This document shows, in pieces, positions 33,036-51,939 of a DNA stretch of 64,000 nucleotides (positions are counted from its first letter, which is position 1; the number at the start of each line of letters is the position of its first letter). The DNA is from a virus, in the IMG/VR virus record IMGVR_UViG_3300009506_003033, positions 1 to 64,000 of that record; one strand, given 5' to 3'. The position numbers and the translations under genes are program-made. A model generated the notes under the pieces. It worked only from the letters and a program-made list of their open reading frames with translations, did not search any database and was not told the origin of the DNA.

Positions 33036-33039
33036 GACA

Positions 33040-33452: not shown

Positions 33453-33456
33453 GACG

Positions 33457-33744: not shown

Positions 33745-33759
33745 TCGACGATAGGTGAG

Positions 33760-34841: not shown

Positions 34842-34875
34842 GTGGCGGCGGAGTGGTGTCCGCCGCCACATTTTT
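34842..34875 (+). terminator. intrinsic terminator
   Basis: GTGGCGGCGGA/TCCGCCGCCAC stem plus ATTTTT. Confidence 0.75.
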
Positions 34876-34886
34876 CGTTTTGAATA

Positions 34887-35034: not shown

Positions 35035-35046
35035 AATCACACCCCA

Positions 35047-37569: not shown

Positions 37570-38423
37570 ATCTCCCACACGATATCATTCGCGTATTTCC
37601 CAGAAAAGCTGGATGGGTCCCGGATGATGGCATGGCATATGTTGGTGCACCTCTATTATTCCGAGAACCAGCAAGAGAAGTACATGTCTCTTGTACCTTT
37701 TCTTGGGACATGAACGAATGCGAACGATTAGCAAGAGAATGGCGGCAATTCTATAGTAATGTGAAAATTGGTGGGCCAGCATATGACACAAGACCAGATG
37801 ATTTTGTTCCCGGGATGTATTTGAAACATGGATATACTATAACATCGAGAGGCTACCATCATCGTTGTGCATTTTGCAAGGTGCATGAGAGAGAAGGACC
37901 ATTACGCGAATTGCCAATCAAAGATGGATGGATTGTGGAGGATTCAAATCTGCTTGCATGTTCGCGGAGGCATATCGAAGCTGTTTTGGAAATGTTATCG
38001 AAGCAGCCGGAACCAGCGAGGTTTACCGGTGGATTTGAGAATCAGCTCGTCACACCATGGTTGTGCAAAGCATTGAAAGAACAGATACGGACAAGAGTTG
38101 TGTACTTGGCATATGATCGGCAAGCCCAAGCGAAATCATTGTCTAGGGCAGCTGCAATGCTATTGGAGCATGGGATACCTCGCGGTGCAATTCGCTGTTA
38201 TTGTTTAGTTGGCTTCGGGGACGATACGGTTGAAGAAGCTGAAAAGCGAATGCGATGGGCATTTACACAAGGGGTTACACCATTTGCTATGTACTATCGT
38301 CCAGTGGAGACCCGACAATGGCGAGTGCCTCCTGGAGACTGGAAAGACCTCGTTCAGAATTGGATATGGGACAAAGTGATCTTTGCACGAATGGCAAAAT
38401 TAGGTATAGAGACAAAAAAATGA
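37563..38423 (+). CDS. radical SAM-like protein with degenerate CxxxCxxC
   Basis: VHVSCTFSW, KIGGPA, TSRGYHHRCAFC, EDSNLLA, CYCLVGF. Confidence 0.7.
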   Translation: MVDLPHDIIRVFPRKAGWVPDDGMAYVGAPLLFREPAREVHVSCTFSWDMNECERLAREWRQFYSNVKIGGPAYDTRPDDFVPGMYLKHGYTITSRGYHHRCAFCKVHEREGPLRELPIKDGWIVEDSNLLACSRRHIEAVLEMLSKQPEPARFTGGFENQLVTPWLCKALKEQIRTRVVYLAYDRQAQAKSLSRAAAMLLEHGIPRGAIRCYCLVGFGDDTVEEAEKRMRWAFTQGVTPFAMYYRPVETRQWRVPPGDWKDLVQNWIWDKVIFARMAKLGIETKK

Positions 38424-39301
38424 TTGAGCCGTTAGCAGATGGATCCAGATGGCATTTATACCGTGGAGATTGCATTGAACACATGGCAGAGCTGCCACAA
38501 GCGTGCTTTGATTTTGCTGTGTTTTCACCACCATTTCCGAGCCTCTTTGCTTACACGGATCTTGCTGAAGATATCGGCAACACGGATGATGTAGAAGGCG
38601 AAGGAAGACTGCATTTGTCCTGGTTTTATCGGCAGCTGGTGCGAGTGATGAAGCCAGGTCGTGTAGTGATGGTTCACGTGATGCAGATACCGTGTCTGGA
38701 ACGTAGCGGTAAAGAAGGGTTGATTGATTTCCGGGGACTGAATATTCGTATCGGACAGCGAAGCGGATTGATTTATGACTACGATTGGTTGATCGGAAAA
38801 AACCCACAGGCTCAAGCGATACGTACTCGATCTCATTCGCTGATGTTTGTAACGATGGAACGTGATCGAGCCAAGATTCGCGGTACTCTTGGGGATTACT
38901 TAATCAAATATCGCATTCCTGGAGAAAACGCGGTTCCTATTGATTCTGAAGGACAGGTAACGCGGAACGATTGGATTTCTTGGGCGGAGGCATGTTGGCC
39001 GTGGACGGACATACGCGAGACAGACACATTGAATGTTGCCGCAGGTCGCGATCAGAAAGACACGAAGCATATTTGCCCATTGCAATTGCCGGTCATACGC
39101 AGATTAGTGAAGATGTACAGCAATCCAGACGAAATCGTTTTTTCGCCATTTGCTGGAATCGGAAGTGAGGGAGTTGAAGCATTGAAGGCAGGCCGGAGAT
39201 TCTACGGATGCGAGATCAAAGACAGTTACGTCAAGGCAGCACGAGCGAATCTAACGAAGACTGTGGCGAAGGAAGAGGATCAAATGGTTCTGTTCCGATG
39301 A
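38420..39301 (+). CDS. DNA methyltransferase (N4C/N6A, beta-type order)
   Basis: GDCIE, FSPPF, HICPLQL, FSPFAGIGSEG, YGCEIK. Confidence 0.85.
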   Translation: MIEPLADGSRWHLYRGDCIEHMAELPQACFDFAVFSPPFPSLFAYTDLAEDIGNTDDVEGEGRLHLSWFYRQLVRVMKPGRVVMVHVMQIPCLERSGKEGLIDFRGLNIRIGQRSGLIYDYDWLIGKNPQAQAIRTRSHSLMFVTMERDRAKIRGTLGDYLIKYRIPGENAVPIDSEGQVTRNDWISWAEACWPWTDIRETDTLNVAAGRDQKDTKHICPLQLPVIRRLVKMYSNPDEIVFSPFAGIGSEGVEALKAGRRFYGCEIKDSYVKAARANLTKTVAKEEDQMVLFR

Positions 39302-39464
39302 GCAATTATGTCGATGGTCAAAAGAGCAGTGATGAATCATCGGCTATTGATTCGCATTCTGTCATGAGGTCATTATACCAAGTCTTCACTTTCGATGAAT
39401 TGCGACAGATGCGGAGGGACGTGCAATATTGTCGCTGTTCTTGGGTTCTCGTGGCTGAATTCAA

Positions 39465-39680
39465 ATGAGGTATACGATGTTGTGGCAGCTGCACTGGCAA
39501 GACGTCGATACTGGAAAGCTAGAATTTCGAGAACAGCGAGATTTTCCAGACGGCGAGACGCATTTTGATTTTGCCTTATGGTGGAAAGGAGTGAACGAAC
39601 GTCATCCATTGCCAGCAAACAAGAGGTGGTTTGTTTGTAACGAATTAGCTCCAGAATTTATAAAGGAGTGTGAAAGATGA
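39465..39680 (+). CDS. hypothetical protein
   Basis: coupled to the downstream gene by ATGA overlap. Confidence 0.45.
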   Translation: MRYTMLWQLHWQDVDTGKLEFREQRDFPDGETHFDFALWWKGVNERHPLPANKRWFVCNELAPEFIKECER

Positions 39681-40666
39681 GCGATGATTTACCAAAAGCA
39701 CACGCACGGTTCAGGGCATTTCACGAGAGGTTCCCGCTGCCGGAGGATAAATTCACGGCACTCAAGGAAGACATCGTGCGAACGAAACAGGTGCGCGATC
39801 CGTTGGTGACGTGGAAAGGCTGTCTCGTCGACGGGTACACCAGGGCCGAGATCATCGAGTCGGAGGGCATCAATATCTGGTCGAGCGAAGCGTTGGATCC
39901 GGACTGGTCGGAGGATCGGGTCTACGAATGGGTGATCGTGAATCAGTGTGCTCGACGGAACCTCACGGAGCAGCAGATGGAGCTGGTTTGGGGGGAGCGA
40001 TACAACCTCGAGAAGGCGAAAGATCACACCGAAAACTTGCCAGTCACTACGGGGGATGTCGAACCAAGCGGTAAAAATTACCGCTTGGGAGAAACTCCGG
40101 GGAAAACGCAAAAAACGACAAACGGAACCGGAAAGAAGAGGGGGAGACCGAAAACGTCGGAACGGATCGCGAAAGAGGCAGGCAAATCCGAAAAAACGGT
40201 GCGGACATGGGGGAAGCATCAGCAGATATTCGAGAGTCTCCCATCGCTCGTTCAGCGGGCGGTCACGAAGAGTCCGAAAAAACTCACCGATAGCCAGTGG
40301 AAGGCCCTGGATAGATGCGAGGGCATCGAAGGTGTGGAGCGGGCATTGCGGGTAGGCCAAGCGGACAATTTGGCGACTGCATACAAGGTTGCCACGGGAA
40401 AAGAATTTGCGGGCATGAAATCGAAACCGAAACAGAAAGGGGAATCGGAACAAACGCAGGATGATGGGCCCCTCACGGAGATTCAGATTGTCAAGCAGAT
40501 CGACGGGATCCGCAAATCTATCGTAAAGCATCGAGCAGCCATGGGATTGTGGACGGAGGCCGGATTGAAGCTGCCAGAAGTCAAACAAATCAGGCTAATC
40601 ATGGCGGCCCTGGATATCCACGTGTATCAACCATTAGGACAACTGGAAGAGGCATTGAAGAAATGA
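39677..40666 (+). CDS. ParB-like N-terminal domain DNA-binding protein
   Basis: DPLVTW..CLVDGYTRAEI, NQCARRNLT, HTH TSERIAKEAGKSEKTVR. Confidence 0.7.
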   Translation: MSDDLPKAHARFRAFHERFPLPEDKFTALKEDIVRTKQVRDPLVTWKGCLVDGYTRAEIIESEGINIWSSEALDPDWSEDRVYEWVIVNQCARRNLTEQQMELVWGERYNLEKAKDHTENLPVTTGDVEPSGKNYRLGETPGKTQKTTNGTGKKRGRPKTSERIAKEAGKSEKTVRTWGKHQQIFESLPSLVQRAVTKSPKKLTDSQWKALDRCEGIEGVERALRVGQADNLATAYKVATGKEFAGMKSKPKQKGESEQTQDDGPLTEIQIVKQIDGIRKSIVKHRAAMGLWTEAGLKLPEVKQIRLIMAALDIHVYQPLGQLEEALKK

Positions 40667-40875
40667 TTGAATTCCGGGACTACAAACAGAAGGCAGCAGC
40701 AATATCACTCAGCGAAATTCGTAATCTAGAGATTCAGTGTCCGGGAGGACAGTGGTGCATGTGTTGTGGTTCTGGTTGTACTTGCGGCTGTCGCGATGAA
40801 TGTCCCGTGTTTTTGGCGGCTGGACGTCGTTTCATCTTCGAACAGTCAGCCAACCAATTGCAGAAAGATAATTGA
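40663..40875 (+). CDS. small Cys-rich protein whose N-terminus duplicates the helicase start
   Basis: MIEFRDYKQKA versus helicase MSIELRDYQQRA; CPGGQWCMCC..CTCGC. Confidence 0.45.
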   Translation: MIEFRDYKQKAAAISLSEIRNLEIQCPGGQWCMCCGSGCTCGCRDECPVFLAAGRRFIFEQSANQLQKDN

Positions 40876-42383
40876 TGTCGATTGAACTCCGAGACTACCA
40901 GCAGCGAGCGATACAAGCCACGCATGAGGCACTGAGACGTGTCAATCGCGTGGTGCTTGTAGCTCCCACGGGCAGTGGCAAGAATTTTTTGTGTAGGTGG
41001 TGGTGCGATGCAATTCCAAAGCGAAATCGAAGACTGGCTATCATTACCCACAGACGAGTTCTCGTATTCCAAATGTCACGACACTGTCAAAATTCTGGCA
41101 TTGATCATGGCATTCGCATGGGTGACGATACGACCAATATCGAGGCCCCAGTCCAAATCTGTTCAATCGATACACTCCATTCGCGAGGCAAAGAATTCTA
41201 TCCATCAGCAGACTGGGTGATCATTGACGAAATCCACTGTAACGAACAACGGTACGCCAAACTGCTAGAGCATTATCCGAGGGCCAAAATTGTCGGCTTG
41301 ACGGCTACACCGGCCAACGAACGTGGAGAGCGTCTGAGCATACCGGAAGAGATAGTTGAACCAGTCTGCAACAGCGATTTGATACCGAAATGGTTGTTGC
41401 CAACTCGGGTTTATCAGATTTGTGACGTTGAAACGAAAGGAATAGGTACGTCAAATGGTGAGTGGAACCAAGAAGAACTCGGCAAGCGACTCGAAAAAGG
41501 ATTCTCTGCAATCGATCTATGGAAACACTGGAAGCCATTTTCCGATCGACAAACTATTGTCTGGGTTCCAAGAGTTGCGTTTGCCAGAGGACTTGCCGAT
41601 CAGTTCGTCGAACGAGGATATTCTGCGGAGGTATTGGTTGCTTCCACAGACAACTCGGAACGCGATTCGATGTTTTCACGGTTTCAATCTGGAACACTTA
41701 GAGTGATTATTGGCGTTCAGATCCCGACAATCGGCCTGGACCTACCGATAGCCAGCTGCGGCATCGATTTACAGCCGAGTAGACAGTTGCGCAATTGGTG
41801 GCAAAAGCTAGGCAGAACGCGACGGCAGCACGGCGACCAGCAGGACGCAGTGCTTCTGGATTGCGGTGGCAACTACTGGAGGCATCAGATTCATCCCGAC
41901 GAGGATCCACCCTGGCCAACTGACGGTAAGACGACGGCCGAATTGCTGAAAGAACGTCGAGAGCGCACAGAGACGGCCGGTAAAGAGCCCTGGGAGTGTC
42001 CCATCTGCAAATACTCACTCGCTCCGTGGGAACGCCTGCACGACAATAAGTGCCCAAATTGCGGCCACGAGCTGGCTCGGGCGAAGCGGCGGATCATCAT
42101 GGGCGATGGAACCATGAGAGAAGTCACGGCGAAATCTCAGCGAGTCAAGAAACAATCTGAACACGTCAAAGTGTGGTTGTCGTGTCTGTACATCGCCGCC
42201 AATACTCACAAAACAGTTGGATTCGCATCTTGGCTATTCAAAAAACGCACGAACAAGTGGCCGCAGAGTACGGACGTAGCGTCAGCGATGAAGGGCTCTA
42301 TGGCACTTCCACCGCCGAATAGTGCAGACTGGAAATTGCCGGTGGCCATGCTATATCCACAGCTACGAAGGAAACCACGATGA
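40872..42383 (+). CDS. DEAD/DEAH-box SF2 helicase with zinc finger (RadD/YejH-like)
   Basis: LRDYQ, APTGSGK, IIDEIH, GLTATP, QKLGRTRR, CPIC...CPNCG. Confidence 0.85.
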   Translation: MMSIELRDYQQRAIQATHEALRRVNRVVLVAPTGSGKNFLCRWWCDAIPKRNRRLAIITHRRVLVFQMSRHCQNSGIDHGIRMGDDTTNIEAPVQICSIDTLHSRGKEFYPSADWVIIDEIHCNEQRYAKLLEHYPRAKIVGLTATPANERGERLSIPEEIVEPVCNSDLIPKWLLPTRVYQICDVETKGIGTSNGEWNQEELGKRLEKGFSAIDLWKHWKPFSDRQTIVWVPRVAFARGLADQFVERGYSAEVLVASTDNSERDSMFSRFQSGTLRVIIGVQIPTIGLDLPIASCGIDLQPSRQLRNWWQKLGRTRRQHGDQQDAVLLDCGGNYWRHQIHPDEDPPWPTDGKTTAELLKERRERTETAGKEPWECPICKYSLAPWERLHDNKCPNCGHELARAKRRIIMGDGTMREVTAKSQRVKKQSEHVKVWLSCLYIAANTHKTVGFASWLFKKRTNKWPQSTDVASAMKGSMALPPPNSADWKLPVAMLYPQLRRKPR

Positions 42384-42568
42384 ATCAAGACGACACCGAT
42401 GCAAATGTCGTGCAGTGTTGGCGATGTTTAACACGGATCTTAGTCCGAGAAGGCGTGATTATCGAACATGAATACGTTGAAGGCGAGTTTCGTCCAGTGC
42501 ATGAGATGTGTGCTGAACAACGGGTCATGAATGGCCACATGCCAGATGTAACTGATTGATTGTTTTTC

Positions 42569-42820
42569 CTAAGGATTGTGGCTAACTTCTCCCATTGTGG
42601 TCGGATTCTTGGATGAAGATCGACAGAGAAGTTCATCGGTCGTACATTTCAGGCAGTCTGCCAAGAGCACGAGTTGAAGAGTCGTCGGAAGTCGTTTGTC
42701 TCGTTCAAAGTCCGACAAAGTACCCTGGCTAATTCCCGTCTGTCTTGCGATCTCCAGTTGTGTCAGTCCCCGGAGCACACGCAGATTTTTGAGAATTTCA
42801 CCAGTGGTTTGCTCTTCCAT
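42569..42820 (-). CDS. XRE-family HTH transcriptional regulator
   Basis: LKNLRVLRGLTQLEIARQTGISQGTLSDFERDKRLP. Confidence 0.85.
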   Translation of the reverse strand: MEEQTTGEILKNLRVLRGLTQLEIARQTGISQGTLSDFERDKRLPTTLQLVLLADCLKCTTDELLCRSSSKNPTTMGEVSHNP

Positions 42821-42887
42821 GGCTTGACGCCTATCGAACGATGTGATAACGTGCATTGCTATACTAGACATGCAGTTTAGCAAATTC

Positions 42888-43931
42888 ATGGTCGGATTCA
42901 AAGTACAAATCGTAGCCGTCGTTCTGGTACTGGCCTCGTGGACATCTACCAGTGCCGAGCGGTGCATCGTTTTCGCCCAAGGTGCAGGCGGATGGTTCCG
43001 TGGAATGGGTGTGCTGGTAGCCAAGGAAGGCACTCGTGGCCTCGTGATGTCGGCGAAGCACGTTGTCCGAAATGCACGCGGTTCTGTGATTTGCCGATTT
43101 GTTGGCGGTGATGTGCGAGTGAGTCAAGTGTTGCGTGTCCCGAATGCAGATATTTGCGGCATGTTGATTGACAATGTACCCGCAAGGGCAGAGCCGACAT
43201 CGTTTGCCGAAGAAGCGCCAAGTGGCAGCGTTGGCACATTTCGAGGTCAGGCTCCGATCACTGTGCAAAATGTGTCGAGCCTGAACGGTTTGCCTCAAAT
43301 CGGATGGCTTGCATCTAGTCCACAAGGGGATTCAGGTGGACCGGTATACAACAGCAATCACGAAGTCGTCGGCATTCTTTGGGGATCCGATGGAAGAACA
43401 TCGATGTCGGAGAGCTATGCGACGGCGCGATGGGCATATGTGCAATTTTGTCAGGCATGGAATTTTCCATGTCCGAGTTGCCAACCGTTACCTTCTGGGA
43501 GGATGGTTGTAGTCCGGCCGACGCAACCGGCTGCTCCTGCTGGTAGTTCAACTCAAGTCGGTCCCTCACAGGCGACGCTGTCGCAGGAGCAGCTTCTAAA
43601 CACTCTGTTGGAAAGGATGGCCAAGGATGAAAGGTTCCGGGGAGTTGCCGGACCCAGTGGGCCTCCTGGCCCGATCGGTCCTGCTGGTGGCGATGGCAGA
43701 GATGGATCTGTGGGTGCTCAGGGACCTCGCGGACCTGTTGGAGAACCTGGCCCGCCAGGACAAGATATCGACGCGAGCGGTGCTATGGCAGCGATTGCAG
43801 CAATCGGCAATCGAATTGATGATCTGACGTTTACCGTCGAGGTTGTTCAACCCGACGGAACTGTTGACACCGGTGTTGTTGTGCACGTCGACGGAGGCGT
43901 GCTCCGTATTAACCTTTCTGGAAAGGAGTAA
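42888..43931 (+). CDS. secreted trypsin-like serine protease with collagen-like repeats
   Basis: signal peptide; SAKHVV, ADIC, GDSGGP catalytic triad; Gly-X-Y repeats GPSGPPGPIGPAG. Confidence 0.8.
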   Translation: MVGFKVQIVAVVLVLASWTSTSAERCIVFAQGAGGWFRGMGVLVAKEGTRGLVMSAKHVVRNARGSVICRFVGGDVRVSQVLRVPNADICGMLIDNVPARAEPTSFAEEAPSGSVGTFRGQAPITVQNVSSLNGLPQIGWLASSPQGDSGGPVYNSNHEVVGILWGSDGRTSMSESYATARWAYVQFCQAWNFPCPSCQPLPSGRMVVVRPTQPAAPAGSSTQVGPSQATLSQEQLLNTLLERMAKDERFRGVAGPSGPPGPIGPAGGDGRDGSVGAQGPRGPVGEPGPPGQDIDASGAMAAIAAIGNRIDDLTFTVEVVQPDGTVDTGVVVHVDGGVLRINLSGKE

Positions 43932-43936
43932 TTCCA

Positions 43937-44263
43937 ATGGCTATTCCGGCCCCGACATCAGACGCTGATGCCATGTGGACCATGAACCTCAAGGCAATCG
44001 CCGATAGCGGAGCATCACTTATTATGGGTGCTGCTCAAGACGTGAAGCTGAGTCAGGCTAGGCTTGCGATCCTTGGCGAGAACCTGCTGGCCCGCGCTGG
44101 CACGACTTTGGTTCAGCCCGATCCTATCGAGGCGGCTGCGACCAAGCAGATTTTGACGGGTAACGCGATGGGCGACAATGCACTTGTGACGGCTCTCGCA
44201 GCGATTCTATCGAAGGTCAGCTACGGGTTCCCAAATCCGATTCCGGCCGGCGGTACGAGCTAA
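43937..44263 (+). CDS. Ala-rich small protein, possibly RebB/R-body-like
   Basis: AAGGAG RBS; DPIEAAATKQILTGN; followed by a terminator. Confidence 0.35.
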   Translation: MAIPAPTSDADAMWTMNLKAIADSGASLIMGAAQDVKLSQARLAILGENLLARAGTTLVQPDPIEAAATKQILTGNAMGDNALVTALAAILSKVSYGFPNPIPAGGTS

Positions 44264-44297
44264 TCGCGTGCCGTAGAGGCACGTCTACGGCTGCGAT

Positions 44298-44337
44298 AAA
44301 CCTTCACCGGTGGCGTGCCACGCCGCTGGAGGTTTTT
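44298..44337 (+). terminator. intrinsic terminator-like hairpin
   Basis: AAACCTTCACCGG...CCGCTGGAGGTTTTT. Confidence 0.5.
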
Positions 44338-44338
44338 A

Positions 44339-44671
44339 ATGACTGCCAAATTCAATATCGAAGTTCCGGTGACGCTGATCTTTCAGCCTGGTCTCGTTCT
44401 GTTGAAAGCTGGATCTCAGACTTTCAATCTCGCAGCGATTGACACCATTGATGAATTTCGTGTATTGCTGTACGGACTCGCATCTGGGGCCATACAATCA
44501 ATAGCTGGCGATTCTGCGACCAGAGTTGTTGCTCCATCCGACGCCAAGCAAACTGCGGAGGCTGCCGATATAATGGCGGATGCCTTTCGCCGACAGGCCC
44601 AGCGGTCACATCAAAATCTCAAGGAAGCTCAAGAGACTTATGAGGCTGCCGTTGCTGGACTCACCAAGTGA
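44339..44671 (+). CDS. hypothetical protein
   Basis: GGAGG RBS, helical C-terminus. Confidence 0.5.
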   Translation: MTAKFNIEVPVTLIFQPGLVLLKAGSQTFNLAAIDTIDEFRVLLYGLASGAIQSIAGDSATRVVAPSDAKQTAEAADIMADAFRRQAQRSHQNLKEAQETYEAAVAGLTK

Positions 44672-44826
44672 ACCAACAGTAACCGCTACTGAAAAGGTTG
44701 CCGAACTACTGAAGTTTCGCCAGGACAAAAGCGAAGCTCTGAAGGAAATTCTCCGCGAATTGACAGAATACGAAGGTCGGCAAGATGCGAGGATGAAAGA
44801 TTTTCTCGATTATTCGCAGCAATGGA

Positions 44827-45057
44827 TTGCAAAGCAGAAGGAATTGGCAAATGGATGACTTTGGTAGAGAAGAAATTATTGGCATACTTGAAAGAATTGT
44901 GTCGATACAAGTAAGCATGAAAAATCTTCTGGACTCAGATTACACACAACCGATAAATGAACAACTCGCATGTGTAACGAATGACATCGATCTCGTTTTG
45001 GCTGATTTACGAGATGCCAGACGTATAGTTCATAAAAAGGAGTTGGCAAGTGAATGA
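44827..45057 (+). CDS. hypothetical protein
   Basis: coupled small-gene chain. Confidence 0.4.
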   Translation: MQSRRNWQMDDFGREEIIGILERIVSIQVSMKNLLDSDYTQPINEQLACVTNDIDLVLADLRDARRIVHKKELASE

Positions 45058-45268
45058 TTTCGACATCGCAGTCGATGATGATATTGCTGAACTTGTTGAA
45101 TCAGGTAAACTGGACCCGTGGAAAGCCGGTCAGTGTCAGCTCCGACGCGATGTCGCAGAACTCAAAACACAATTGCGAGATGACATCGCAGTCCTTCAAA
45201 AAAAAATGGAAGATCGAATCACAAAGGACAGTTGGCTCAAAATCCGAAGAAGAAATCCTACTGGCTGA
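45050..45268 (+). CDS. hypothetical protein
   Basis: AAGGAG RBS. Confidence 0.45.
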   Translation: MNDFDIAVDDDIAELVESGKLDPWKAGQCQLRRDVAELKTQLRDDIAVLQKKMEDRITKDSWLKIRRRNPTG

Positions 45269-45864
45269 TCGCGGTCTTGATCTTGGCATTCATCGCCGAG
45301 GCCATCATCGGATACTTAATACTGGATCAAGGATTTCTACCGACAATGAATCAACAACAGCCAATTCACATCAAACTGGAGACGCGATGAATCCAAACGA
45401 AAATCATCAATTGATCATAGGCGGGATCACTTTGATTTCAGACGGACGTTTGGCCACTGTGACGAGTCCAGTGTGTGTTTATGAGAATCTGACGCCGGAA
45501 AACGTGCAGGAATTTTGGAATCTGGCCCGATCGAGAGGAGACATCGTAAACGCGATGGATGAATTCCGCGACAAGATGTCTTCGATCTTGATTGATATAG
45601 GCAACGTTCGACAAGCAAAGGCTAAAGGAAATCCAGATGTCAGCATCGATCAATCCACGAAGTAATTTGCTCCGAACAGCACTTCCAAACGAACACGTGG
45701 CGAATTTTCTTCAAGGTCGCAAAGACATGCCAACGCTGCTTGGCACCATCGAATACATGGATGCTGAGATGGCACGTCTAGAAAGCGAGCTGCGAGCAGT
45801 GGAACATCAGAGACCGGGATGCCCGAAGAAATCTGATAATAACGACTGAAAGGAACAGAATCCA

Positions 45865-46206
45865 ATGAAACTGGCTGTTATCGCATCGTTTGTGGCAATA
45901 CTCTTCCTTGTCAGCGCATGTAGTGCTGACGTCATTTATCGTCCCGGATTGCTTCCGGGCGTTTGGTGGGGAATTCAGCCGGCGGGGCCACCGATCACAG
46001 TGCAACCGATGCAACGAGTTCGCATTCGTGTTTTTCGGCCATGGTTCTTGGCTGTGCCGCCGGTCATTCAGTACCCACGAGGACCATATTCACCGGTTCA
46101 GGTAATGCCAGGATCATCGGCGCCAACGTGGGGCGAATATCAGGGTCGATGGGGATGGGGAGTCATTCCACAGCAGAATTCAACCGTAACCAAAGAGGAG
46201 CAATGA
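45865..46206 (+). CDS. putative exported or lipoprotein, Pro-rich
   Basis: signal MKLAVIASFVAILFLVSAC (lipobox-like VSAC). Confidence 0.5.
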   Translation: MKLAVIASFVAILFLVSACSADVIYRPGLLPGVWWGIQPAGPPITVQPMQRVRIRVFRPWFLAVPPVIQYPRGPYSPVQVMPGSSAPTWGEYQGRWGWGVIPQQNSTVTKEEQ

Positions 46207-46496
46207 TGGCAGGACGAGGAAAGAAAGTGTGCCCAGAATGCAGTTCAGAATGCGGCACGAGAAGCAAAGAGTGTCCGAGTTGCAGTCATGTGTTCGCGGC
46301 CAGACGCGAATCGAAGAGGCCGCGAGTGCCAACTGATGCCGAACTAAAGGCACAAGATGTTTCCAGCAACGGAGCCATGATCCAGGCATCGAATGCCTTG
46401 GCGGCAATTGAGGCCGCTCGAAAATTGGTAGACTGTTGCAGCGGAGACGCGGCAGCCGCGAACGAGTTGATTCTATCTATGATCGGCCAAGATTAA
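46203..46496 (+). CDS. zinc-ribbon protein
   Basis: GKKVCPECSSECGTRSKECPSCSHVF; GAGGAG RBS. Confidence 0.6.
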   Translation: MMAGRGKKVCPECSSECGTRSKECPSCSHVFAARRESKRPRVPTDAELKAQDVSSNGAMIQASNALAAIEAARKLVDCCSGDAAAANELILSMIGQD

Positions 46497-46508
46497 AGAG
46501 TCGATGGT

Positions 46509-46575
46509 CGCGAGGCACGATGGACTGCCCCGTCTCGGCTTGGAGCGATGTCGGGACGGGGTTGCCTCGCTTTTT
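46509..46575 (+). terminator. hairpin plus T-tract
   Basis: GCGAGGCA...CCCCGTCTCGGC/GTCGGGACGGGG...TGCCTCGCTTTTT. Confidence 0.55.
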
Positions 46576-46586
46576 GAAAGCAACTC

Positions 46587-47261
46587 ATGCCTGTTTTCTG
46601 TCTTTGCACCGGCCGCTGCGGATCGCAATCTATAGTTGATCTGCTGAAGCGAAACGGCGTCGAAGGCTGTCATCACGAGAAATATCCGGCACTCTTTCGT
46701 GAAGCAATCGGTTATTATTACGGGCTCTACAGTCGGGATCGAATCGTAGCGAAGTTGCGAGAGACGCGGCAGGGCGTGTTCTTCGAGGCCAACAACAAAC
46801 TCTTTCCGTTGGCCAAGCCTCTTTTTCAGGCGTTTCCCGACGCCAAGTTCATGGTTCTGCATCGCGACGGCAGAGAAGTAGTGCGGTCGGCTCTTCAGAG
46901 CAATTGGTATCATCCCAAAGATCCCTATGGCATGTTGAGGCTCGGTGCGAGGATGAGAATCTCGCAGTTCAAGAAGGTGTGTCGATATTGGTCTGAAGTT
47001 TACCGGCGCATCTACGATGATCTGGCATCGCTGGATTGTGAATTCATTGAAGTACGATTCGATGAATTGATCAAAGGCAAATTGGCGGATCAGCTCGGCA
47101 AGTTCATCGGCAGGAGGCTAAGACTTCGCGTGCCGCGGAGACTGCACCGCACGAAGCGATGGACGGTGAAACCATACGCGCAGTGGAAGCCCGAGCGGCA
47201 GCGAGAATTTCGGAGCATCTGCGGCCCGATGATGGAACGGCTGGGATATTCTTTCGATTGA
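46587..47261 (+). CDS. sulfotransferase family protein
   Basis: LCTGRCGSQS, HHE, FPDAKFMVLHRDGREVVRS, VRFDEL, MMERLGY. Confidence 0.8.
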   Translation: MPVFCLCTGRCGSQSIVDLLKRNGVEGCHHEKYPALFREAIGYYYGLYSRDRIVAKLRETRQGVFFEANNKLFPLAKPLFQAFPDAKFMVLHRDGREVVRSALQSNWYHPKDPYGMLRLGARMRISQFKKVCRYWSEVYRRIYDDLASLDCEFIEVRFDELIKGKLADQLGKFIGRRLRLRVPRRLHRTKRWTVKPYAQWKPERQREFRSICGPMMERLGYSFD

Positions 47262-47266
47262 CGGTA

Positions 47267-47294
47267 TTGACAGAATATCGCAGTCGTTTATAAT
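47267..47294 (+). promoter_or_regulatory. consensus sigma70-type promoter for the repeat/Cas7-like locus
   Basis: TTGACA-16-TATAAT. Confidence 0.85.
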
Positions 47295-47308
47295 CTGGTT
47301 TATACGGT

Positions 47309-47408
47309 GTGGCAGCCGAAGAGTCCGGAGAGCCAAAACCCTTCGGTGTTCGCAACGAGCGCTTCTCCGGTGCTCACTGCCACGCGGTCACCGAAGGGTT
47401 TTTGTTTT
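47309..47408 (+). promoter_or_regulatory. attenuator-like leader (C4/CI antisense-type architecture)
   Basis: terminator AAAACCCTTCGGTG/CACCGAAGGGTTTT; loop CTTCTCCGGTGCTC and CTGCCAC complementary to upstream GAGTCCGGAGAG and GTGGCAG. Confidence 0.65.
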
Positions 47409-47419
47409 GATGGAGACGG

Positions 47420-47603
47420 GGCGCGGCGTGGCGCGGCGAGGCATGGCAGGGCGGGGCGGGGCCAGGCAAGGCGAGGCAGGCGTGGCATGGCAGGCGAGGC
47501 AGGCAGGGCTTGGCATGGCAGGCGAGGCGAGGCGCGGCGAGGCGAGGCAGGCAGGGCACGGCAGGGCATGGCAGGGCCAGGCAGGGCGAGGCAGGCATGG
47601 TTT
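47420..47603 (+). repeat. GGY-NN pentamer array 1 (candidate guide-RNA array)
   Basis: GGCGC GGCGT GGCGC GGCGA GGCAT GGCAG ... punctuated by GGCA. Confidence 0.9.
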
Positions 47604-47605
47604 TC

Positions 47606-47635
47606 GTCCGATGTGAGTGCATCGGACACTTTTTT
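47606..47635 (+). terminator. intrinsic terminator after array 1
   Basis: GTCCGATG-TGAGTG-CATCGGAC plus ACTTTTTT. Confidence 0.8.
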
Positions 47636-47673
47636 CCTTTACTGCTGGCACAGGCCAGCAAGGAGTTATTGTC

Positions 47674-48363
47674 ATGGCAAAGGCCAAGAAACCAGAAGGT
47701 ACGATCGAACTTCAGCGGCTCGAAGAGGCCATTCTTGAGGTGCCCATCATCGGCAAGACACCGTTGATCCCGCACAAATGGTCGGAGAAGGCCAAAGGCA
47801 TGATGCCAGGGCATCCTGATCGAGACAAAGTGAAAGCCGATAAGGGTACTCGCGATCCAGCAAAGGAAGCCGAGTCCTGCCAGTACAAACTCGGCGAACA
47901 GTACGCAGTTCCCGCTACTGCGTTCAAAGCGGCTATGATTGGTGCTTGTCGATTCTTCGAGAAGCCTACGATGGTCGAAGCCAAATCGCTGGTGTACGTC
48001 GAAGGTTCTGGCGCTGATCAGCTTGTCGAATTCGACTACAAGGACAAAGAGTTGCACGAGGATACTCCTCGCAACTCAAATGGCAGCGCCGATCTGCGGT
48101 ATCGATACTATTTCACGAACTGGTCAGCTGTTCTGCGAATCTTGTACGTGCCGAAGATCATCTCCCGAGAGTCCATCATTGCTCTTGTTGATGCTGCGGG
48201 CCGCGGAGGCATCGGCGATTGGCGGCCGAGTGCCCCAAAGTCGATGACGGGAACGTACGGCACGTGGCGAGTCGATGATCGCGGCACGATCAGAGACATC
48301 GATCCGAAAGATGTTGACAAGACATCGCCTAAACCAAAGCGGAAAGCATCAAAAGCAATCTGA
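47674..48363 (+). CDS. solo Cas7/RAMP-like RNA-binding protein
   Basis: beta1 LEVPIIGKTPLIPH, YAVPATAFKAAM helix, LRYRYYFTNWSAVLRI, C-terminal Gly-rich loop AAGRGGIGDWRP...GTYGTWRV; AAGGAG RBS. Confidence 0.75.
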   Translation: MAKAKKPEGTIELQRLEEAILEVPIIGKTPLIPHKWSEKAKGMMPGHPDRDKVKADKGTRDPAKEAESCQYKLGEQYAVPATAFKAAMIGACRFFEKPTMVEAKSLVYVEGSGADQLVEFDYKDKELHEDTPRNSNGSADLRYRYYFTNWSAVLRILYVPKIISRESIIALVDAAGRGGIGDWRPSAPKSMTGTYGTWRVDDRGTIRDIDPKDVDKTSPKPKRKASKAI

Positions 48364-48383
48364 TGTTTTGCGGTTGAAGACAT

Positions 48384-49253
48384 GGCAAGGTAAGGCTAGG
48401 CCGGGCATGGCGCGGCAAGGCAAGGCCAGGCGTGGCAGGTTGGGTTCGGCTTGGCAAGGCTGGGCAGGCCAGGCTTGGCATGGCATGACTGGGTCTGGCA
48501 GGGCTCGGCGGGGCTTGGCGAGGCAGGCGAGGCGCGGCCAGGCTTGGCACGGCTTGGCTGGGCCAGGTGAGGCAAGGCAAGGCGTGGCAGGCTAGTCGCG
48601 GCCAGGCATGGCTGGATTAGGTAGGGCTTAGCGAGGCGAGGCACGGCAGGCGTGGCGTGGCGTGGCTAGGCAAGGCATGGCGTGGCAGGCGAGCCAAGGC
48701 TAGGCAAGGCGGGGCAAGGCTGGGCGCGGCAGGGCGAGGCTTGGCTTGGCTCGGCAAGGCGCGGCAGGCGCGGCAGGGCTCGGCGCGGCAAGGCAGGCAA
48801 GGTGTGGCGCGGCATGCGCGGCAAGGCAGGCGAGGCGTGACGAGGCGAGGCCAGGCCCGGCGAGGCGAGGCCAGGCCCGGCGAGGCGAGGCGAGGCGCGG
48901 CGAGGCGAGGCAGGCAGGGCACGGCAGGGCATGGCAGGGCGGGGCAAGGCCGGGCTTGGTTTGGCATGGCAAGGCTGGCGAGGCAGGCAAGGCGAGGCAG
49001 TCGTGGCTTGGCGGGGCATGGCATGGCCTGGCAGGGCAAGGCGCGGTGGGGCTGGGCAAGGCGTGGCAGGCATGGCCCGGCATGGCGCGGCGAGGCGGGA
49101 CAGGGCGGGGCACGGCTGGGCATGGCAAGGCTGGCGAGGCAGGCAAGGCGAGGCAGTCGGGGCTCGGCATGGCGGGGCTGGGCTAGGCCAGGCGTGGCAG
49201 GTTGGGTTCGGCTTGGCAAGGCTGGGCTTGGCCCGGTAAGGCAAGGCGCGGCA
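48384..49253 (+). repeat. GGY-NN pentamer array 2 (about 870 bp)
   Basis: strict 5-nt register of GGC/GGT plus variable dinucleotide, reset roughly 17 times by GGCA tetramers. Confidence 0.95.
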
Positions 49254-49260
49254 GACATGA

Positions 49261-49298
49261 TGCTGGCGGTAAGTGCCGCCAGCAATATTTTCTTTCTC
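49261..49298 (+). terminator. intrinsic terminator after array 2
   Basis: TGCTGGCGG-TAAGTG-CCGCCAGCA plus ATATTTTCTTTCTC. Confidence 0.75.
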
Positions 49299-49331
49299 TA
49301 ACGTTCGCATAGGCGGACAAGGAGTTGTGTT

Positions 49332-50045
49332 ATGGCTAAGGCCAAATCTAGTGTAATCACGATGTCACTGTCTGAACTTGTGGAGGACATGGAATTGTAC
49401 CCGCGGCATGCTGTTGACAATGCACATGTCGCTTCTCTCGTGTTGGCGATGGAATCCGGCAGTCAATTGCCGCCGATCGTCGCTGACAAGAAATCCAAAC
49501 GGATCACTGATGGATGGCATCGGGCCAGGGCCTATGCGCGAATACATGGCCCAACGGCGACTGTAGAGGTCGAACTAATCGACTATGCATCAGAAGCAGA
49601 TATGATTTTTGATGCAGTGCGACGTAATTCTGCTCACGGTCGCAAGCTCGATTCAATGGATCAAACGCGGTCCATCCACATGATGGAAAAACGAGGCTTG
49701 CAATCGATTCAAATCGCGGCTGCCTTGAATGTGCCAGAGAAACGGATCGAGAAGCTGCGGATCAAAGTCGCGAGCAGCCGATCATCCGGGATTGCTACGG
49801 TTCCAGGCACGAAGTCGATCACGTTGAAGCGATCGTGTTCTCACATGGCCGGCAAATCATTGACAGCCGATCAAGTAAAAGTGCACGATTCGGCGCCTGG
49901 AACCAGCTATCTATTGGTTTCACGACAATTGCGAGAGGCACTGCGAGTTGAACTAGTGAATCTCGACGATGAGCGACTGGTGGAAGAACTTTGTGCTCTG
50001 CGTGACGCACTGAATGAGTACTTGGAGCAGCTTTGTGCTGCTTGA
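49332..50045 (+). CDS. ParB/Srx-like N-terminal domain protein
   Basis: LYPR, LPPIVAD..RITDGWHRARAY, RRNSAHGRKL, HTH IQIAAALNVP. Confidence 0.75.
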   Translation: MAKAKSSVITMSLSELVEDMELYPRHAVDNAHVASLVLAMESGSQLPPIVADKKSKRITDGWHRARAYARIHGPTATVEVELIDYASEADMIFDAVRRNSAHGRKLDSMDQTRSIHMMEKRGLQSIQIAAALNVPEKRIEKLRIKVASSRSSGIATVPGTKSITLKRSCSHMAGKSLTADQVKVHDSAPGTSYLLVSRQLREALRVELVNLDDERLVEELCALRDALNEYLEQLCAA

Positions 50046-50051
50046 GGTTTA

Positions 50052-50214
50052 GGTCTGGGCAAGGCGTGGCAAGGCCAGGATGGGCTCGGCGGGGCGTGGC
50101 AGGCAGGGCACGGCAAGGCAGGGCGAGGCCGGGCCAGGCGCGGCATGGCCTGGCATGGCGCGGCGCGGCGAGGCAGGCGAGGCAAGGCGCGGCTTGGTGT
50201 GGCAGGCGAGGCAA
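50052..50214 (+). repeat. GGY-NN pentamer array 3
   Basis: GGCAA GGCGT GGCAA GGCCA ... GGCA punctuation. Confidence 0.9.
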
Positions 50215-50233
50215 GACATCGCGGATATGAAAC

Positions 50234-50458
50234 ATGAAAGGTGTGGCGAATGAAATGAAAACCTACACGAAAACAAAGCTACTGGCATATTACAAAGAGC
50301 TCGGAAAAACGCCGCCTAAGTGGGTGTTGGAGGCGCCGGAGAATGCGTTATTCAATCAAGGCTTGACACCATACGGTCACGTTCCGCTGTATATCAAGGG
50401 GATGCCTGCACCGAAAGCACAACCTGATGTTGTATCAATCGACTTTCCGGACGCTTAG
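50234..50458 (+). CDS. small hypothetical protein between arrays 3 and 4
   Basis: AT-richer ORF MKTYTKTKLLAYYKELGKTPPKW. Confidence 0.5.
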   Translation: MKGVANEMKTYTKTKLLAYYKELGKTPPKWVLEAPENALFNQGLTPYGHVPLYIKGMPAPKAQPDVVSIDFPDA

Positions 50459-50475
50459 AGAAGGCTGGCATTGTA

Positions 50476-50708
50476 GGCGTGGCACGGCCGGGCATGGCTC
50501 GGCAGGGCGCGGCCAGGCGCGGCCAGGCGTGGCAGGCGTGGCAGGCGTGGCTTGGCGCGGCAAGGATAGGCAAGGCAAGGCTAGGTTTGGCGAGGCGCGG
50601 CGAGGCCGAGCTCGGCGCGGCTGGCTTGGCATGGCTTGGCGAGGGCCGGTTTGGCCAGGCGCGGCATGGCTTGGCATGGCGCGGCGCGGCGAGGCAGGCG
50701 AGGTGCGG
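50476..50708 (+). repeat. GGY-NN pentamer array 4
   Basis: GGCGT GGCAC GGCCG GGCAT GGCTC ...; shares 50/51 nt with array 3. Confidence 0.9.
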
Positions 50709-50769
50709 ACAAACAACTCTCCCAAAACCCAACCCACTTGTTACACTATGGATAGCAAAGGAGGTGCCA

Positions 50770-51939
50770 GTGACATTGCAGGTAGAGACAGTGCCGATTG
50801 ACAGCGTGAGTCCTGATCCGGCGAACACGATGAACCATCCACCGCGGAACATCTCTGCCATTGAGGGATCGCTGAAGCGGTTCGGACTTCGTAAGCCGAT
50901 CGTCGTCGATAGCAACGGGGTCATCAGGGCCGGCAATGGGACATGGCAGGCAGCCAAGAATCTCGGCTGGCAAACAATTGATGTTGCACGGACTAATCTC
51001 GCTGGTTCCGAGGCAACGGCCTATTCCATCGCTGACAATCGCACGGCTGAACTGGCGGAATGGAACGAGGAGTTACTGGCTAGACTCTTGCCGGAGATGG
51101 ATTACGAGTTGCAACTCGCTACCGGATTTGATGAGGACGATCTGAAAGAGTTGTTCGCTGAACAATTGAACAACACGGACAGCGAGATAGATCGTGAACC
51201 ACTTATCGATAAGGCCGGAGAACTTCAGAGGAAATGGAAGGTTGAGTTGGGCCAATTCTGGCAAATTGATCGGCACCTTGTATATTGCGGGGATGCTCTT
51301 GACTGGTCTTACGAAGCAGATGGAGTTTGCACCGATCCACCGTATGACATGAGTTGCGAAACGATTCGAACGGTCGTCCGTCAATATGCAAAAGTAGCAG
51401 CTGTTATCTGTACGGGACGCCAGGCATTCAATTTAGCGAGGGATGGATGGGAATATGCAATGGACTTATGTTGGAGTCATAAATCTCCACGATCAATCAA
51501 CACGAAGCGTACGCCATTGTTCTACCACGCGAATGTTGTCGTGATGAATCTGGGCGGAAACAAGACCGACTGGACGCGACCGAGGCCAAATTACGGCAGT
51601 CTATTACATCACGAATACGAGGACTGGGGAGGCCACGGCCAAGGCAAGTCGCCGAACTTATTCGCAGAAATTATGGAAGGATTTCCCTGGGAAACGATGG
51701 CTGATCCTTTCGCCGGAACGCTTGCGACACTTATTGCGGCTCACAAACAAGGCAGAACATTCATTGGATGCGAAAAAGAGCCAAAAATGCTGGCGGTAGG
51801 GCTTGAACGTTGCAGCCTATTGTGTCCTAAGGTGTTGACAGACAAGCAGTTGAGTCGGTATAATGCGGGAAAGCTTGCTGGTGGTCAGCAAGCGATCCCG
51901 AAACATGCTCGAACTGTGAAGGAGTCCGAGAATGTCTGA
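50770..51939 (+). CDS. ParB-like domain fused to a DNA methylase
   Basis: AAGGAGG RBS plus GTG; SLKRFGLRKPIVVD..IRAGNGT, IADNRTAELAEW, TDPPY, ADPFAGT. Confidence 0.8.
   Translation: MTLQVETVPIDSVSPDPANTMNHPPRNISAIEGSLKRFGLRKPIVVDSNGVIRAGNGTWQAAKNLGWQTIDVARTNLAGSEATAYSIADNRTAELAEWNEELLARLLPEMDYELQLATGFDEDDLKELFAEQLNNTDSEIDREPLIDKAGELQRKWKVELGQFWQIDRHLVYCGDALDWSYEADGVCTDPPYDMSCETIRTVVRQYAKVAAVICTGRQAFNLARDGWEYAMDLCWSHKSPRSINTKRTPLFYHANVVVMNLGGNKTDWTRPRPNYGSLLHHEYEDWGGHGQGKSPNLFAEIMEGFPWETMADPFAGTLATLIAAHKQGRTFIGCEKEPKMLAVGLERCSLLCPKVLTDKQLSRYNAGKLAGGQQAIPKHARTVKESENV
51835..51864 (+). promoter_or_regulatory. internal sigma70-type promoter
   Basis: TTGACA-18-TATAAT; spacer contains AGCAGTTGAG, also in the 26612 promoter. 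Confidence 0.6.

What the first reader, a model, noticed from the sequence alone, without database searches (positions are those of the whole stretch)
47267..50708. Solo Cas7/RAMP-like gene embedded in GGY-NN pentamer arrays: candidate phage RNA-guided system with a non-contiguous guide code
Seen: four non-coding arrays (47420-47603, 48384-49253, 50052-50214, 50476-50708) keep a strict 5-nt register of a constant GGC/GGT triplet plus a freely varying dinucleotide. They flank a 229-aa protein with RAMP hallmarks (I.G.TPL..H first strand, P.TAFKAAM helix, C-terminal G-rich loop GRGGIGDWRP...GTYG). The locus has its own TTGACA-16-TATAAT promoter, and terminators follow arrays 1 and 2. No cas1/2/3/5/6/8 and no classical repeat-spacer array are in the window. 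Established: Cas7 proteins polymerise on guide RNA with a fixed step size. Inference: each protomer grips one GGY and presents the NN for pairing, so the NN string is the information, for example AA-AA-TA-CG-AT-GC-AA-AA-CA-GT in the first segment of array 2. I recall a recently reported phage system of this design (VIPR, GGY/NN guides pairing with DNA while skipping every third base) but cannot verify that here.
Basis: partly seen in the sequence, partly recalled or inferred. Interest (0 to 1): 0.97.

Follow-up and report, generated by a model that had tools for sequence, protein, structure and literature searches.

The report
Phage VIPR RNA-guided locus, large arrays
This stretch of a marine-sediment phage carries a VIPR system, a recently published kind of phage RNA-guided DNA-silencing machine made of one small Cas7-like protein and arrays of GGC-plus-two-letter repeats, so it is a further example of a known kind and not a new one.

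Summary
Four same-strand arrays (1,456 nt, 284 GGY triplets) hold 234 of the window's 273 GGYNNGGY words. The register is not strict: 234 of 279 spacings are 5 nt and 30 are 4 nt, mostly GGCA.

The interpretation also holds. VIPR is in print (bioRxiv 10.64898/2026.04.26.720920 and .720927). Protein 47674-48363 is a full-length homologue of the solved SUSP1 Vipr (profile E 2e-14, hhalign 98.5%). Both proteins match phrog_4652. The five residues that grip GGY in SUSP1 are kept. Same-strand arrays flank 37 of 40 viral homologues.

What this work adds:
- GGCA tetramers delimit guide-sized segments, with a conserved boundary that is specific to this clade. This probably matches the preprint's "staggered arrays".
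- The downstream ParB-like gene is a recurrent Vipr partner. At least 19 of 26 loci have a Vipr gene (9 checked as adjacent), and 16 of 26 have arrays.

Not shown:
- No target was found under the one-base-skip rule in any search.
- No RNA data exist for this phage.

Verdict: a new member of a known kind, of moderate interest.

The parts
47267..47294 (+). Sigma-70-type promoter, TTGACA-16-TATAAT
   Evidence: 12 of 12 consensus positions. Whether it drives the arrays is inferred.
47296..47412 (+). Structured leader ending in a 14-bp stem plus T-run (terminator-like), between the promoter and array 1
   Evidence: Fold of -49.5 kcal/mol, z -2.26. No Rfam family at E<=1. Loose similarity to leaders elsewhere in the phage.
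47420..47603 (+). vrRNA array 1 (38 GGY; 7 segments, two of them of guide length, 12 and 9 units)
47606..47637 (+). Intrinsic terminator-like hairpin plus T-run after array 1
47674..48363 (+). vipr gene (229 aa). The ATG start with an AAGGAG site upstream fits the homologue alignment. A 248-aa GTG call (47617) also exists in public gene calls.
48384..49253 (+). vrRNA array 2 (168 GGY; 20 segments, 12 of them with 8-17 units)
   Evidence: Block 48883-48955 is 93% identical to 47520-47592.
49261..49294 (+). Intrinsic terminator-like hairpin plus T-run after array 2
49332..50045 (+). ParB-like accessory gene (237 aa), a candidate vap
   Evidence: phrog_1033 at 2e-13. No Pfam hit, nothing significant in PDB. 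The family sits beside vipr and arrays in other viral contigs.
50046..50214 (+). vrRNA array 3 (starts right after the ParB-like stop codon; guide-length segments of 9 and 15 units)
50234..50458 (+). 74-aa ORF between arrays 3 and 4, with no family match and no relatives in the fetched loci
50476..50708 (+). vrRNA array 4 (guide-length segments of 12, 16 and 15 units)

Best explanation
The locus is a VIPR system (Viral Interference Programmable Repeat) of a marine-sediment phage.

Proposed mechanism, by homology with the SUSP1 system:
- The arrays are transcribed and cut or delimited into vrRNAs.
- Vipr protomers polymerise along each vrRNA, one per pentamer. They lock each GGY through His34, Arg144 and the Asp182-Trp183-Arg184 G-loop, and present each NN.
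- The NN string pairs with double-stranded DNA while skipping every third target base. This represses transcription of a competing mobile element.

In this clade the guides carry no separate tail. A 4-nt unit (GGCA, a -1 slip of the register) preceded by a constrained purine-A/T unit marks each guide end. This gives 19 guide-length segments (8-17 units) among 36 segments. A ParB-like protein is the accessory partner.

Shown here:
- Homology of the protein to the solved SUSP1 Vipr and conservation of the contact residues.
- Array anatomy.
- Co-occurrence of the protein, the arrays and the ParB-like gene in other phages.
- Modular gain and loss of GGCA-delimited segments in related mycobacteriophages.

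Inferred:
- Transcription and processing of the arrays.
- Filament formation.
- The skip rule for this clade.
- The targets and the role of the ParB-like protein.
For: Protein:
- The only PDB sequence match is 36pp 'SUSP1 Vipr protein': E 0.0026 with the single sequence, 4.2e-6 with the near-clade profile, and 2e-14 over profile positions 19-202 and chain residues 2-189 with a broader profile.
- hhalign gives 98.5%, E 2.7e-15, over 172 columns.
- The window protein (3.9e-29) and SUSP1 Vipr (1.4e-96) both match phrog_4652.
- SUSP1 H17, R138, D177, W178 and R179 are named as GGY contacts in 10.64898/2026.04.26.720927 section 5. They align with H34, R144, D182, W183 and R184.

Family size: 788 hits and 2,225 representative clusters at E<=0.001.

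Co-occurrence: 37 of 40 viral loci with a homologue have same-strand 5-nt GGY arrays close to the gene, and only one short array (6 units, in L038) lies on the opposite strand.

Delimiter:
- 4-nt units, mostly GGCA, occur in the near clade, with segment lengths clustering at 9-15 units. They are all but absent from the distant clade L029 and L031-L040 (one GGCG in L030 and one GGCT in L040).
- The boundary logo is GGC-R-W-GGC-A|GGC in 13 window boundaries and 45 boundaries from relatives.
- In mycobacteriophage loci L004 to L008, whole GGCA-delimited segments are gained or lost. One such difference is 113 nt, which is not a multiple of 3.

Partner: the ParB-like gene follows vipr in L002, L010 and L013. 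Of 26 viral loci with the ParB-like family, 16 have same-strand arrays and 10 have vipr by tblastn. Of 10 further records, 9 have an adjacent phrog_4652 match.

Indirect: the NN make-up of core guide units correlates best with codon positions 1-2 of the phage's own genes (Spearman 0.68, against 0.22-0.31 and -0.35 for the other phases and strands, and 0.55 for genome dinucleotides). This fits wobble-skipping targets.

Viral setting: IMG/VR provirus record, CheckV completeness 96%, with the small terminase subunit nearby.
Against: - No target was found. The own genome gave a mean best match of 0.694 against 0.690 +/- 0.005 for shuffled guides, and 49 fetched loci gave 0.717 against 0.717.
- Viral-contig scans for 3 of the 19 guide-length segments, and one metagenome scan for a fourth, gave only seed-level hits.
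- A control guide from mycobacteriophage L004 also found no credible target. The skip rule is therefore untested for this clade.
- No RNA run holds the locus, so expression and processing are unknown.
- 17 of 36 segments have only 2-6 units, which the guide model does not explain.
- A terminator-like hairpin sits between the promoter and array 1, and terminators precede vipr and the ParB-like gene. How the genes are expressed is unclear.
- The ParB-like call rests on PHROG profiles only. There is no Pfam hit, the NCBIfam match is far below its cut-off, and nothing significant appears in PDB.
Confidence: 0.88

Rival explanations
1. It is a VIPR locus, but its arrays mainly regulate or act as decoys, rather than silencing competitors. 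They could titrate a rival phage's Vipr, or time the phage's own or host genes. Many segments may be decayed remnants.
For: - 17 of 36 segments are too short (2-6 units) for the published 9-16 repeat guides.
- Blocks are copied between arrays.
- No external target was found.
- Decoy and solo vrRNAs are reported for the SUSP1 family in 10.64898/2026.10.15.759431 (abstract and passages).
Against: - No match in the own genome is better than for shuffled guides.
- The locus keeps an intact vipr with all contact residues.
- The searched collections may simply lack the competitors of a marine-sediment phage.
Confidence: 0.07
2. It is a reduced CRISPR-Cas remnant: a solo Cas7 of a class 1 system that lost its partners, with the repeats unrelated to guide function.
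For: Vipr and Cas7 share the RAMP architecture according to 10.64898/2026.04.26.720920 (Results).
Against: - No Pfam RAMP or Cas1 match in the record, and no repeat-spacer array.
- No PADLOC match.
- The only solved relative is Vipr, with no Cas7 at E<=10.
Confidence: 0.02
3. The arrays are not RNA guides at all. They could be low-complexity coding sequence (Gly/Ala/Arg-rich) or structural DNA such as G-rich recombination or quadruplex-prone tracts.
For: - Open frames run through the arrays in several frames.
- Gene callers sometimes include them, as in the N-terminal extension of P0025.
Against: - A 5-nt period with 4-nt slips cannot keep a reading frame.
- Related phages differ by whole segments whose length is not a multiple of 3.
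- The arrays are tied to vipr on the same strand in 37 of 40 loci.
Confidence: 0.02

Closest known systems
SUSP1 / Pseudomonas fulva VIPR (called type II in bioRxiv 10.64898/2026.04.26.720920; structure in 10.64898/2026.04.26.720927; PDB 36pp)
   Same: - Homologous Vipr over its full length, in the same PHROG, with the same GGY-contact residues.
- GGY/NN pentamer arrays on the gene's strand, upstream and downstream.
- A minimal two-gene phage locus without cas genes.
   Different: - About 20% identity.
- GGC units here against mostly GGT in SUSP1.
- SUSP1 vrRNAs each end in a non-repeat tail (reported to form a pseudoknot). Here segments abut and are split only by GGCA.
- The partner is ParB-like (phrog_1033), not vap1 (phrog_5926).
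- Far more units: 284 GGY here against four vrRNAs in SUSP1.
VIPR 'staggered arrays with overlapping vrRNAs' (legend of Fig. S18 of 10.64898/2026.04.26.720920, seen as a passage; the figure itself was not seen)
   Same: The legend says vrRNAs derive from positions overlapping by 1 nt, with the end of one marking the start of the next. GGCA|GGC can be read as GGCAG overlapping GGCNN by one G.
   Different: I could not see the figure or the type tables, because supplements are closed. The identity of the two architectures is therefore likely but not verified. The constrained purine-A/T unit before the slip and the short 2-6-unit segments are not mentioned in the text I read.
Vipr loci of cluster-A-like mycobacteriophages (Pippy, Donkeykong, Florinda and others; Cheoctovirus) and Gordonia phages
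   Same: - The closest named relatives, at 50-52% identity.
- The same GGCA-delimited arrays upstream of the gene.
   Different: - One upstream array of 3-6 guides, against four arrays here.
- A different downstream gene, with no family hit.
- Annotated only as hypothetical proteins.
Class 1 CRISPR-Cas Cas7 backbone filaments
   Same: By the published comparison: a RAMP protein polymerising on a guide RNA with a fixed step, and a thumb that flips bases periodically.
   Different: - No repeat-spacer array, no Cas1/2, and no other Cas proteins.
- The guide information is non-contiguous.
- No Pfam RAMP match.
ParB / Noc / KorB-type DNA-binding proteins
   Same: The 237-aa partner matches PHROG ParB-like families over residues 5-143. 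It keeps an R-I-x-D-G-x-H-R-x-R-A block across four homologues.
   Different: - No Pfam ParB_N hit at E<=0.1, and the NCBIfam match is far below its cut-off.
- No partition context.
- CTP binding, sliding and nuclease activity are all untested.

Membership tests
VIPR system | Vipr protein homologous to a characterised Vipr | tested here: met
   36pp SUSP1 Vipr is the only significant PDB sequence match: E 2e-14 at full length, hhalign 98.5%. Both proteins match phrog_4652.
VIPR system | Residues that recognise GGY (SUSP1 H17, R138, D177, W178, R179) | tested here: met
   They align with H34, R144, D182, W183 and R184. Among the 30 aligned Viprs: R in 30 of 30, H in 28, W in 28, R in 29, and D or E in 29.
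VIPR system | RAMP fold: RRM core, glycine-rich loop, thumb | not testable with these tools
The G-loop motif G-R-G-G-I-G-D-W-R-P is visible in the sequence. The fold is inferred from homology to 36pp.
VIPR system | Tandem YNNGG / GGYNN repeats (at least 4 units) next to vipr on its strand | tested here: met
   Four arrays with 284 GGY, all on the + strand.
VIPR system | GGY conserved while NN is hypervariable | tested here: met
   All 16 NN dinucleotides occur, with 3.68 of 4 bits. Related mycobacteriophages differ by NN changes and by whole segments.
VIPR system | Individual vrRNAs of 9-16 repeats capped by an invariable 3' tail | tested here: inconclusive
   19 of 36 segments have 8-17 units. 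No non-repeat tail lies between segments, and a GGCA slip with a constrained preceding unit takes its place. Hairpins follow only arrays 1 and 2. This may equal the published staggered type.
VIPR system | Minimal locus: vipr plus an accessory vap gene, no cas genes, no CRISPR array | tested here: met
   No PF01867 or PF03787 match. The ParB-like partner recurs with vipr in at least 19 of 26 loci. Which published vap it is, if any, could not be checked.
VIPR system | Array-derived small RNAs that bind Vipr | not testable with these tools
   No RNA holder was listed among the sequencing runs.
VIPR system | Natural targets that match NN under the one-base-skip rule (at least 80% NN match) | tested here: inconclusive
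   Nothing above chance in the own genome, in 49 loci, or for 4 of 19 guides in public collections. Only exact seeds could be scanned.
CRISPR-Cas class 1 (Cas7) | Repeat-spacer array, adaptation genes, and a RAMP matching Cas7 profiles | tested here: not met

The most novel reading that the evidence does not exclude
This clade may be a VIPR variant that the main texts of the four VIPR-related preprints do not spell out.

First, guides are tail-less and self-delimiting. A -1 register slip (GGC-R-W-GGC-A|GGC) ends one Vipr filament and starts the next, so the RNA register itself sets guide length.

Second, the accessory protein is a ParB-type protein. It could be recruited to the vrRNA-marked site and spread along the DNA from it, widening the silencing beyond the footprint.
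Probability: 0.2. Interest if true: 0.6.

Novelty: new member of a known kind. Interest (0 to 1): 0.3.

Why it matters
The locus confirms that sequence reading alone can recover a VIPR system. It also extends the family to a large marine-sediment phage with an unusually big guide repertoire: 19 guide-length segments in four arrays.

Two features could be useful to people working on VIPR:
- A clade-specific, tail-less way of delimiting guides, which bears on how vrRNAs are processed and on how compact multiplexed arrays could be built.
- A ParB-like accessory gene tightly linked to vipr, which hints at how a bound guide complex might be turned into wider silencing.

Neither feature changes the picture of what VIPR is.

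Tried and rejected
The protein atlas did not hold the sequence or a homologue. No Foldseek or VIA comparison was therefore possible, and I relied on sequence and profile comparison with the solved SUSP1 Vipr.

I used the search for related loci instead.

Host. The window has no tRNA and the record has no tyrosine integrase. Megablast of 30000-47000 against phages found nothing. Genome contigs gave only about 50% relatives, in a Micromonosporaceae MAG and Mycobacterium szulgai. Cluster look-up gave no names. The host stays unknown.

Targets.
- Own genome under skip rules 0-3 gave means of 0.690, 0.694, 0.695 and 0.682, against 0.690 +/- 0.005 for shuffled skip-1 guides.
- 49 fetched loci gave skip-1 0.717 against shuffled 0.717.
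- Viral scans: a 10-unit seed gave 0 hits. An 8-unit seed of the same guide gave 6 hits, best 19 of 30. An 8-unit seed of guide 50476 gave 3 hits, best 18 of 24. A 9-unit seed of guide 49005 gave 0 hits.
- Metagenome scan: a 9-unit seed of guide 48526 gave 21 hits, best 21 of 26, with 18 fixed by the seed.
- Control with a guide of mycobacteriophage L004: 10 hits, best 22 of 24 in three contigs sharing one sequence. Of these, 18 are fixed by the seed, all hits lie in contigs of 32-49% G+C, and none is a mycobacteriophage. I judged this to be chance.
- In all, only 4 of the window's 19 guide-length segments were scanned in public collections, and only by exact seeds.

RNA. No RNA holder was listed, so nothing can be said on expression. 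Rfam gave no family at E<=1 in 46500-51500.

ParB-like protein. It has no Pfam hit, no significant PDB hit with the sequence or with profile A3 and no PADLOC hit. The single-sequence locus search found none, whereas the alignment found 26.

In print. 'ParB' has 0 occurrences in the main texts of 10.64898/2026.04.26.720920.720927, 10.64898/2026.10.15.759431 and 10.64898/2026.10.21.760802. Supplements were closed. The type tables, the vap list and Figs S16-S21 may already cover this clade, the ParB-like gene and the GGCA architecture.

Full report
**What is there**

The window is the first 64 kb of an 84,498-bp single-contig IMG/VR virus record. The record has 51% G+C, is classed as a provirus, and has a CheckV completeness of 96%.

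Between 47267 and 50708 on the + strand, the elements run in this order:
- a perfect sigma-70-type promoter (12 of 12);
- a structured leader ending in a 14-bp stem plus T-run;
- array 1;
- a terminator-like hairpin;
- a 229-aa gene;
- array 2;
- a second terminator-like hairpin;
- a 237-aa gene;
- array 3, starting directly after that gene's stop codon;
- a 74-aa ORF;
- array 4.

Downstream lie a ParB-N/DNA-methyltransferase fusion, a phrog_2045 protein and the small terminase subunit. A sulfotransferase lies upstream.

Yes. The four arrays span 1,456 nt and hold 284 GGY triplets. They contain 234 of the window's 273 GGYNNGGY words, and the reverse-strand equivalent occurs only 39 times in the whole window. 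They are the only such arrays in the whole record, all on the + strand, while 20 block-shuffled genomes gave one array in total.

GGC dominates, with 219 GGC against 15 GGT among 234 clean units. All 16 NN dinucleotides occur, at 3.68 of 4 bits.

The register is not strict. Of 279 spacings, 234 are 5 nt, 30 are 4 nt, and 15 are longer, mostly a degenerate triplet kept in register.

Logan contigs of two marine-sediment DNA runs from one study cover the arrays with no or one differing letter. They break within the repeats, so the long-range order depends on the original assembly.

**What it is**

- bioRxiv 10.64898/2026.04.26.720920 describes VIPR. It consists of a Vipr RAMP protein and vrRNAs of 9-16 YNNGG repeats, whose NN dinucleotides pair with DNA while one target base in three is skipped. 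It is mostly phage-encoded, usually has one accessory vap gene, and comes in seven types. I read its Results, Discussion and Methods sections 18, 20, 26 and 27, plus some figure legends as passages.
- 10.64898/2026.04.26.720927 gives the cryo-EM basis. I read sections 5 and 6.
- 10.64898/2026.10.15.759431 covers satellite conflict. I read the abstract and passages.
- 10.64898/2026.10.21.760802 recovers 5-nt arrays with a language model. I read passages only.

The 229-aa protein has no Pfam, NCBIfam or PADLOC match. Its only solved relative by sequence is 36pp, 'SUSP1 Vipr protein':
- E 0.0026 with the single sequence;
- E 4.2e-6 with a near-clade profile;
- E 2e-14 over nearly the whole length with a profile that adds intermediate relatives;
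- hhalign 98.5%, E 2.7e-15, over 172 columns.

No Cas7 appears at E<=10. The window protein and SUSP1 Vipr (taken from NC_028808.2) both match phrog_4652.

In a 30-sequence MAFFT alignment, the SUSP1 residues reported to hold G1, G2 and Y3 are H17, R138, D177, W178 and R179. They align with H34, R144, D182, W183 and R184, and these columns are nearly invariant.

The family is large: 788 hits, and 2,225 clusters at 50% identity with E<=0.001. The nearest named relatives are hypothetical proteins of Cheoctovirus mycobacteriophages at 50-52% identity, and of Gordonia phages.

**Co-occurrence**

Of 40 IMG/VR loci encoding a homologue, 37 carry 5-nt GGY arrays on the gene's strand close to it. The three without are L022, L024 and L028. 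One short array of 6 units lies on the opposite strand. One public gene call even translates an upstream array as an N-terminal extension (P0025).

The record has one Vipr, no Cas1 and no Pfam RAMP.

**Guide boundaries**

Splitting the arrays at every register break gives 36 segments. Nineteen have 8-17 units and 17 have 2-6 units.

Nearly all breaks are a 4-nt unit, GGCA. It can be read as GGCAG overlapping the next GGC by one G. The unit before it is constrained. Its first letter is G or A in 12 of 13 clean window boundaries and in 95% of 45 boundaries from 15 related loci. Its second letter is A or T in about 84% of both sets. This compares with backgrounds of about 70% and 62% in the window, and 65% and 50% in the relatives.

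The delimiter is clade-specific. It is found in the nearer relatives, with segment lengths clustering at 9-15 units. It is all but absent from the distant clade (L029 and L031-L040, with single odd 4-nt units in L030 and L040), which pairs with a vap1-like gene.

In five mycobacteriophage loci, the arrays differ by whole GGCA-delimited segments. For example, 113 nt is present in L004 and absent from L005. This is the behaviour expected of modular guides and is incompatible with coding sequence.

The legend of Fig. S18 of the discovery preprint describes 'staggered' arrays whose vrRNAs overlap by 1 nt. That is very likely this architecture, but I could see neither the figure nor the supplements.

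**Accessory gene**

The 237-aa protein matches PHROG ParB-like families (2e-13). It has no Pfam hit and no significant PDB hit.

Its homologues follow vipr in L002, L010 and L013. With an alignment of the four sequences, 26 viral loci were found:
- 16 have same-strand arrays beside the gene, and 10 have vipr by tblastn;
- of 10 more records tested with phrog_4652, 9 have a match directly next to the ParB-like gene, and one complete genome has none;
- six loci were not tested with the profile.

Other Vipr relatives pair with phrog_15946 (a gene family found next to vipr in 11 loci; three representatives match that PHROG) or with phrog_5926, the family of SUSP1 vap1. 'ParB' does not occur in the main text of any of the four papers.

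**Targets**

None was found:
- Best matches in the phage's own genome equal those of shuffled guides under every skip rule, as the preprint also reports for own contigs.
- The 49 loci then in hand gave the same result.
- Exact-seed scans of viral contigs (three guides) and metagenome contigs (one guide) returned only hits explained by the seed.
- A control guide from a mycobacteriophage also failed. The method therefore has no positive control in this clade.

One indirect hint is that the NN make-up of core guide units follows codon positions 1-2 of the phage's genes better than any other phase or strand. Spearman is 0.68, p 0.004 uncorrected for seven comparisons, against 0.55 for genome dinucleotides.

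**Open points**

- How vipr and the ParB-like gene are expressed behind terminator-like hairpins.
- What the 2-6-unit segments are.
- Whether the leader (47296-47412) gates the locus. It resembles other leaders in this phage only loosely, at 61% mean column identity across four sequences.
- The host is unknown.

**Verdict**

The locus is a new member of a published kind. It has two features worth passing on: the GGCA-delimited tail-less guides and the ParB-like partner.

Noticed in passing
window 47296-47412: Right after the perfect promoter lies a leader that folds into a long hairpin (-49.5 kcal/mol, z -2.26) ending in a T-run. It looks like a promoter-proximal terminator or a roughly 115-nt small RNA. 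It aligns only loosely (61% mean column identity across four sequences) with leaders at 34915-35040, 23710-23825 (minus strand) and 20430-20535.
   Followed up: partly
window 50770-51939: A fusion of a ParB N-terminal domain with a DNA methyltransferase (phrog_498 at 7e-50; PADLOC MTase_II at 1e-24) lies just downstream of array 4. It is the second ParB-type domain next to the VIPR locus.
   Followed up: partly
window 47650-47690 and 49310-49350: The vipr gene and the ParB-like gene have near-identical translation starts: AAGGAGTT, a short spacer, then ATGGC-AAGGCCAA, giving MAKAK in both. This hints at a duplicated or co-regulated initiation region.
   Followed up: no
window 47520-47592 and 48883-48955; 48977-49004 and 49133-49160; 48429-48466 and 49191-49228: Blocks of array sequence are copied within and between arrays (93% identity for the first pair). 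Guides at 50102 and 50623 share their last nine units except for one letter.
   Followed up: partly
window 46587-47261: A sulfotransferase-family gene (Sulfotransfer_3, 2e-10) lies directly upstream of the VIPR promoter.
   Followed up: no
window 23288-23396: A hexamer tandem repeat (GTAGCC, 18 copies, 89% matches) was reported by Tandem Repeats Finder. It was not examined.
   Followed up: no
L090, L091, L099 (IMG/VR contigs): These records have vipr (phrog_4652) next to a ParB-like gene but no GGY 5-nt array by my criteria. They may use a non-canonical repeat.
   Followed up: no
L004-L008 (mycobacteriophages Donkeykong, Pippy, Florinda, ByChance, SwagPigglett): The arrays upstream of vipr differ by insertion or loss of whole GGCA-delimited segments and by single NN changes in a shared guide, much like spacer turnover. 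These genes are annotated only as hypothetical proteins.
   Followed up: partly
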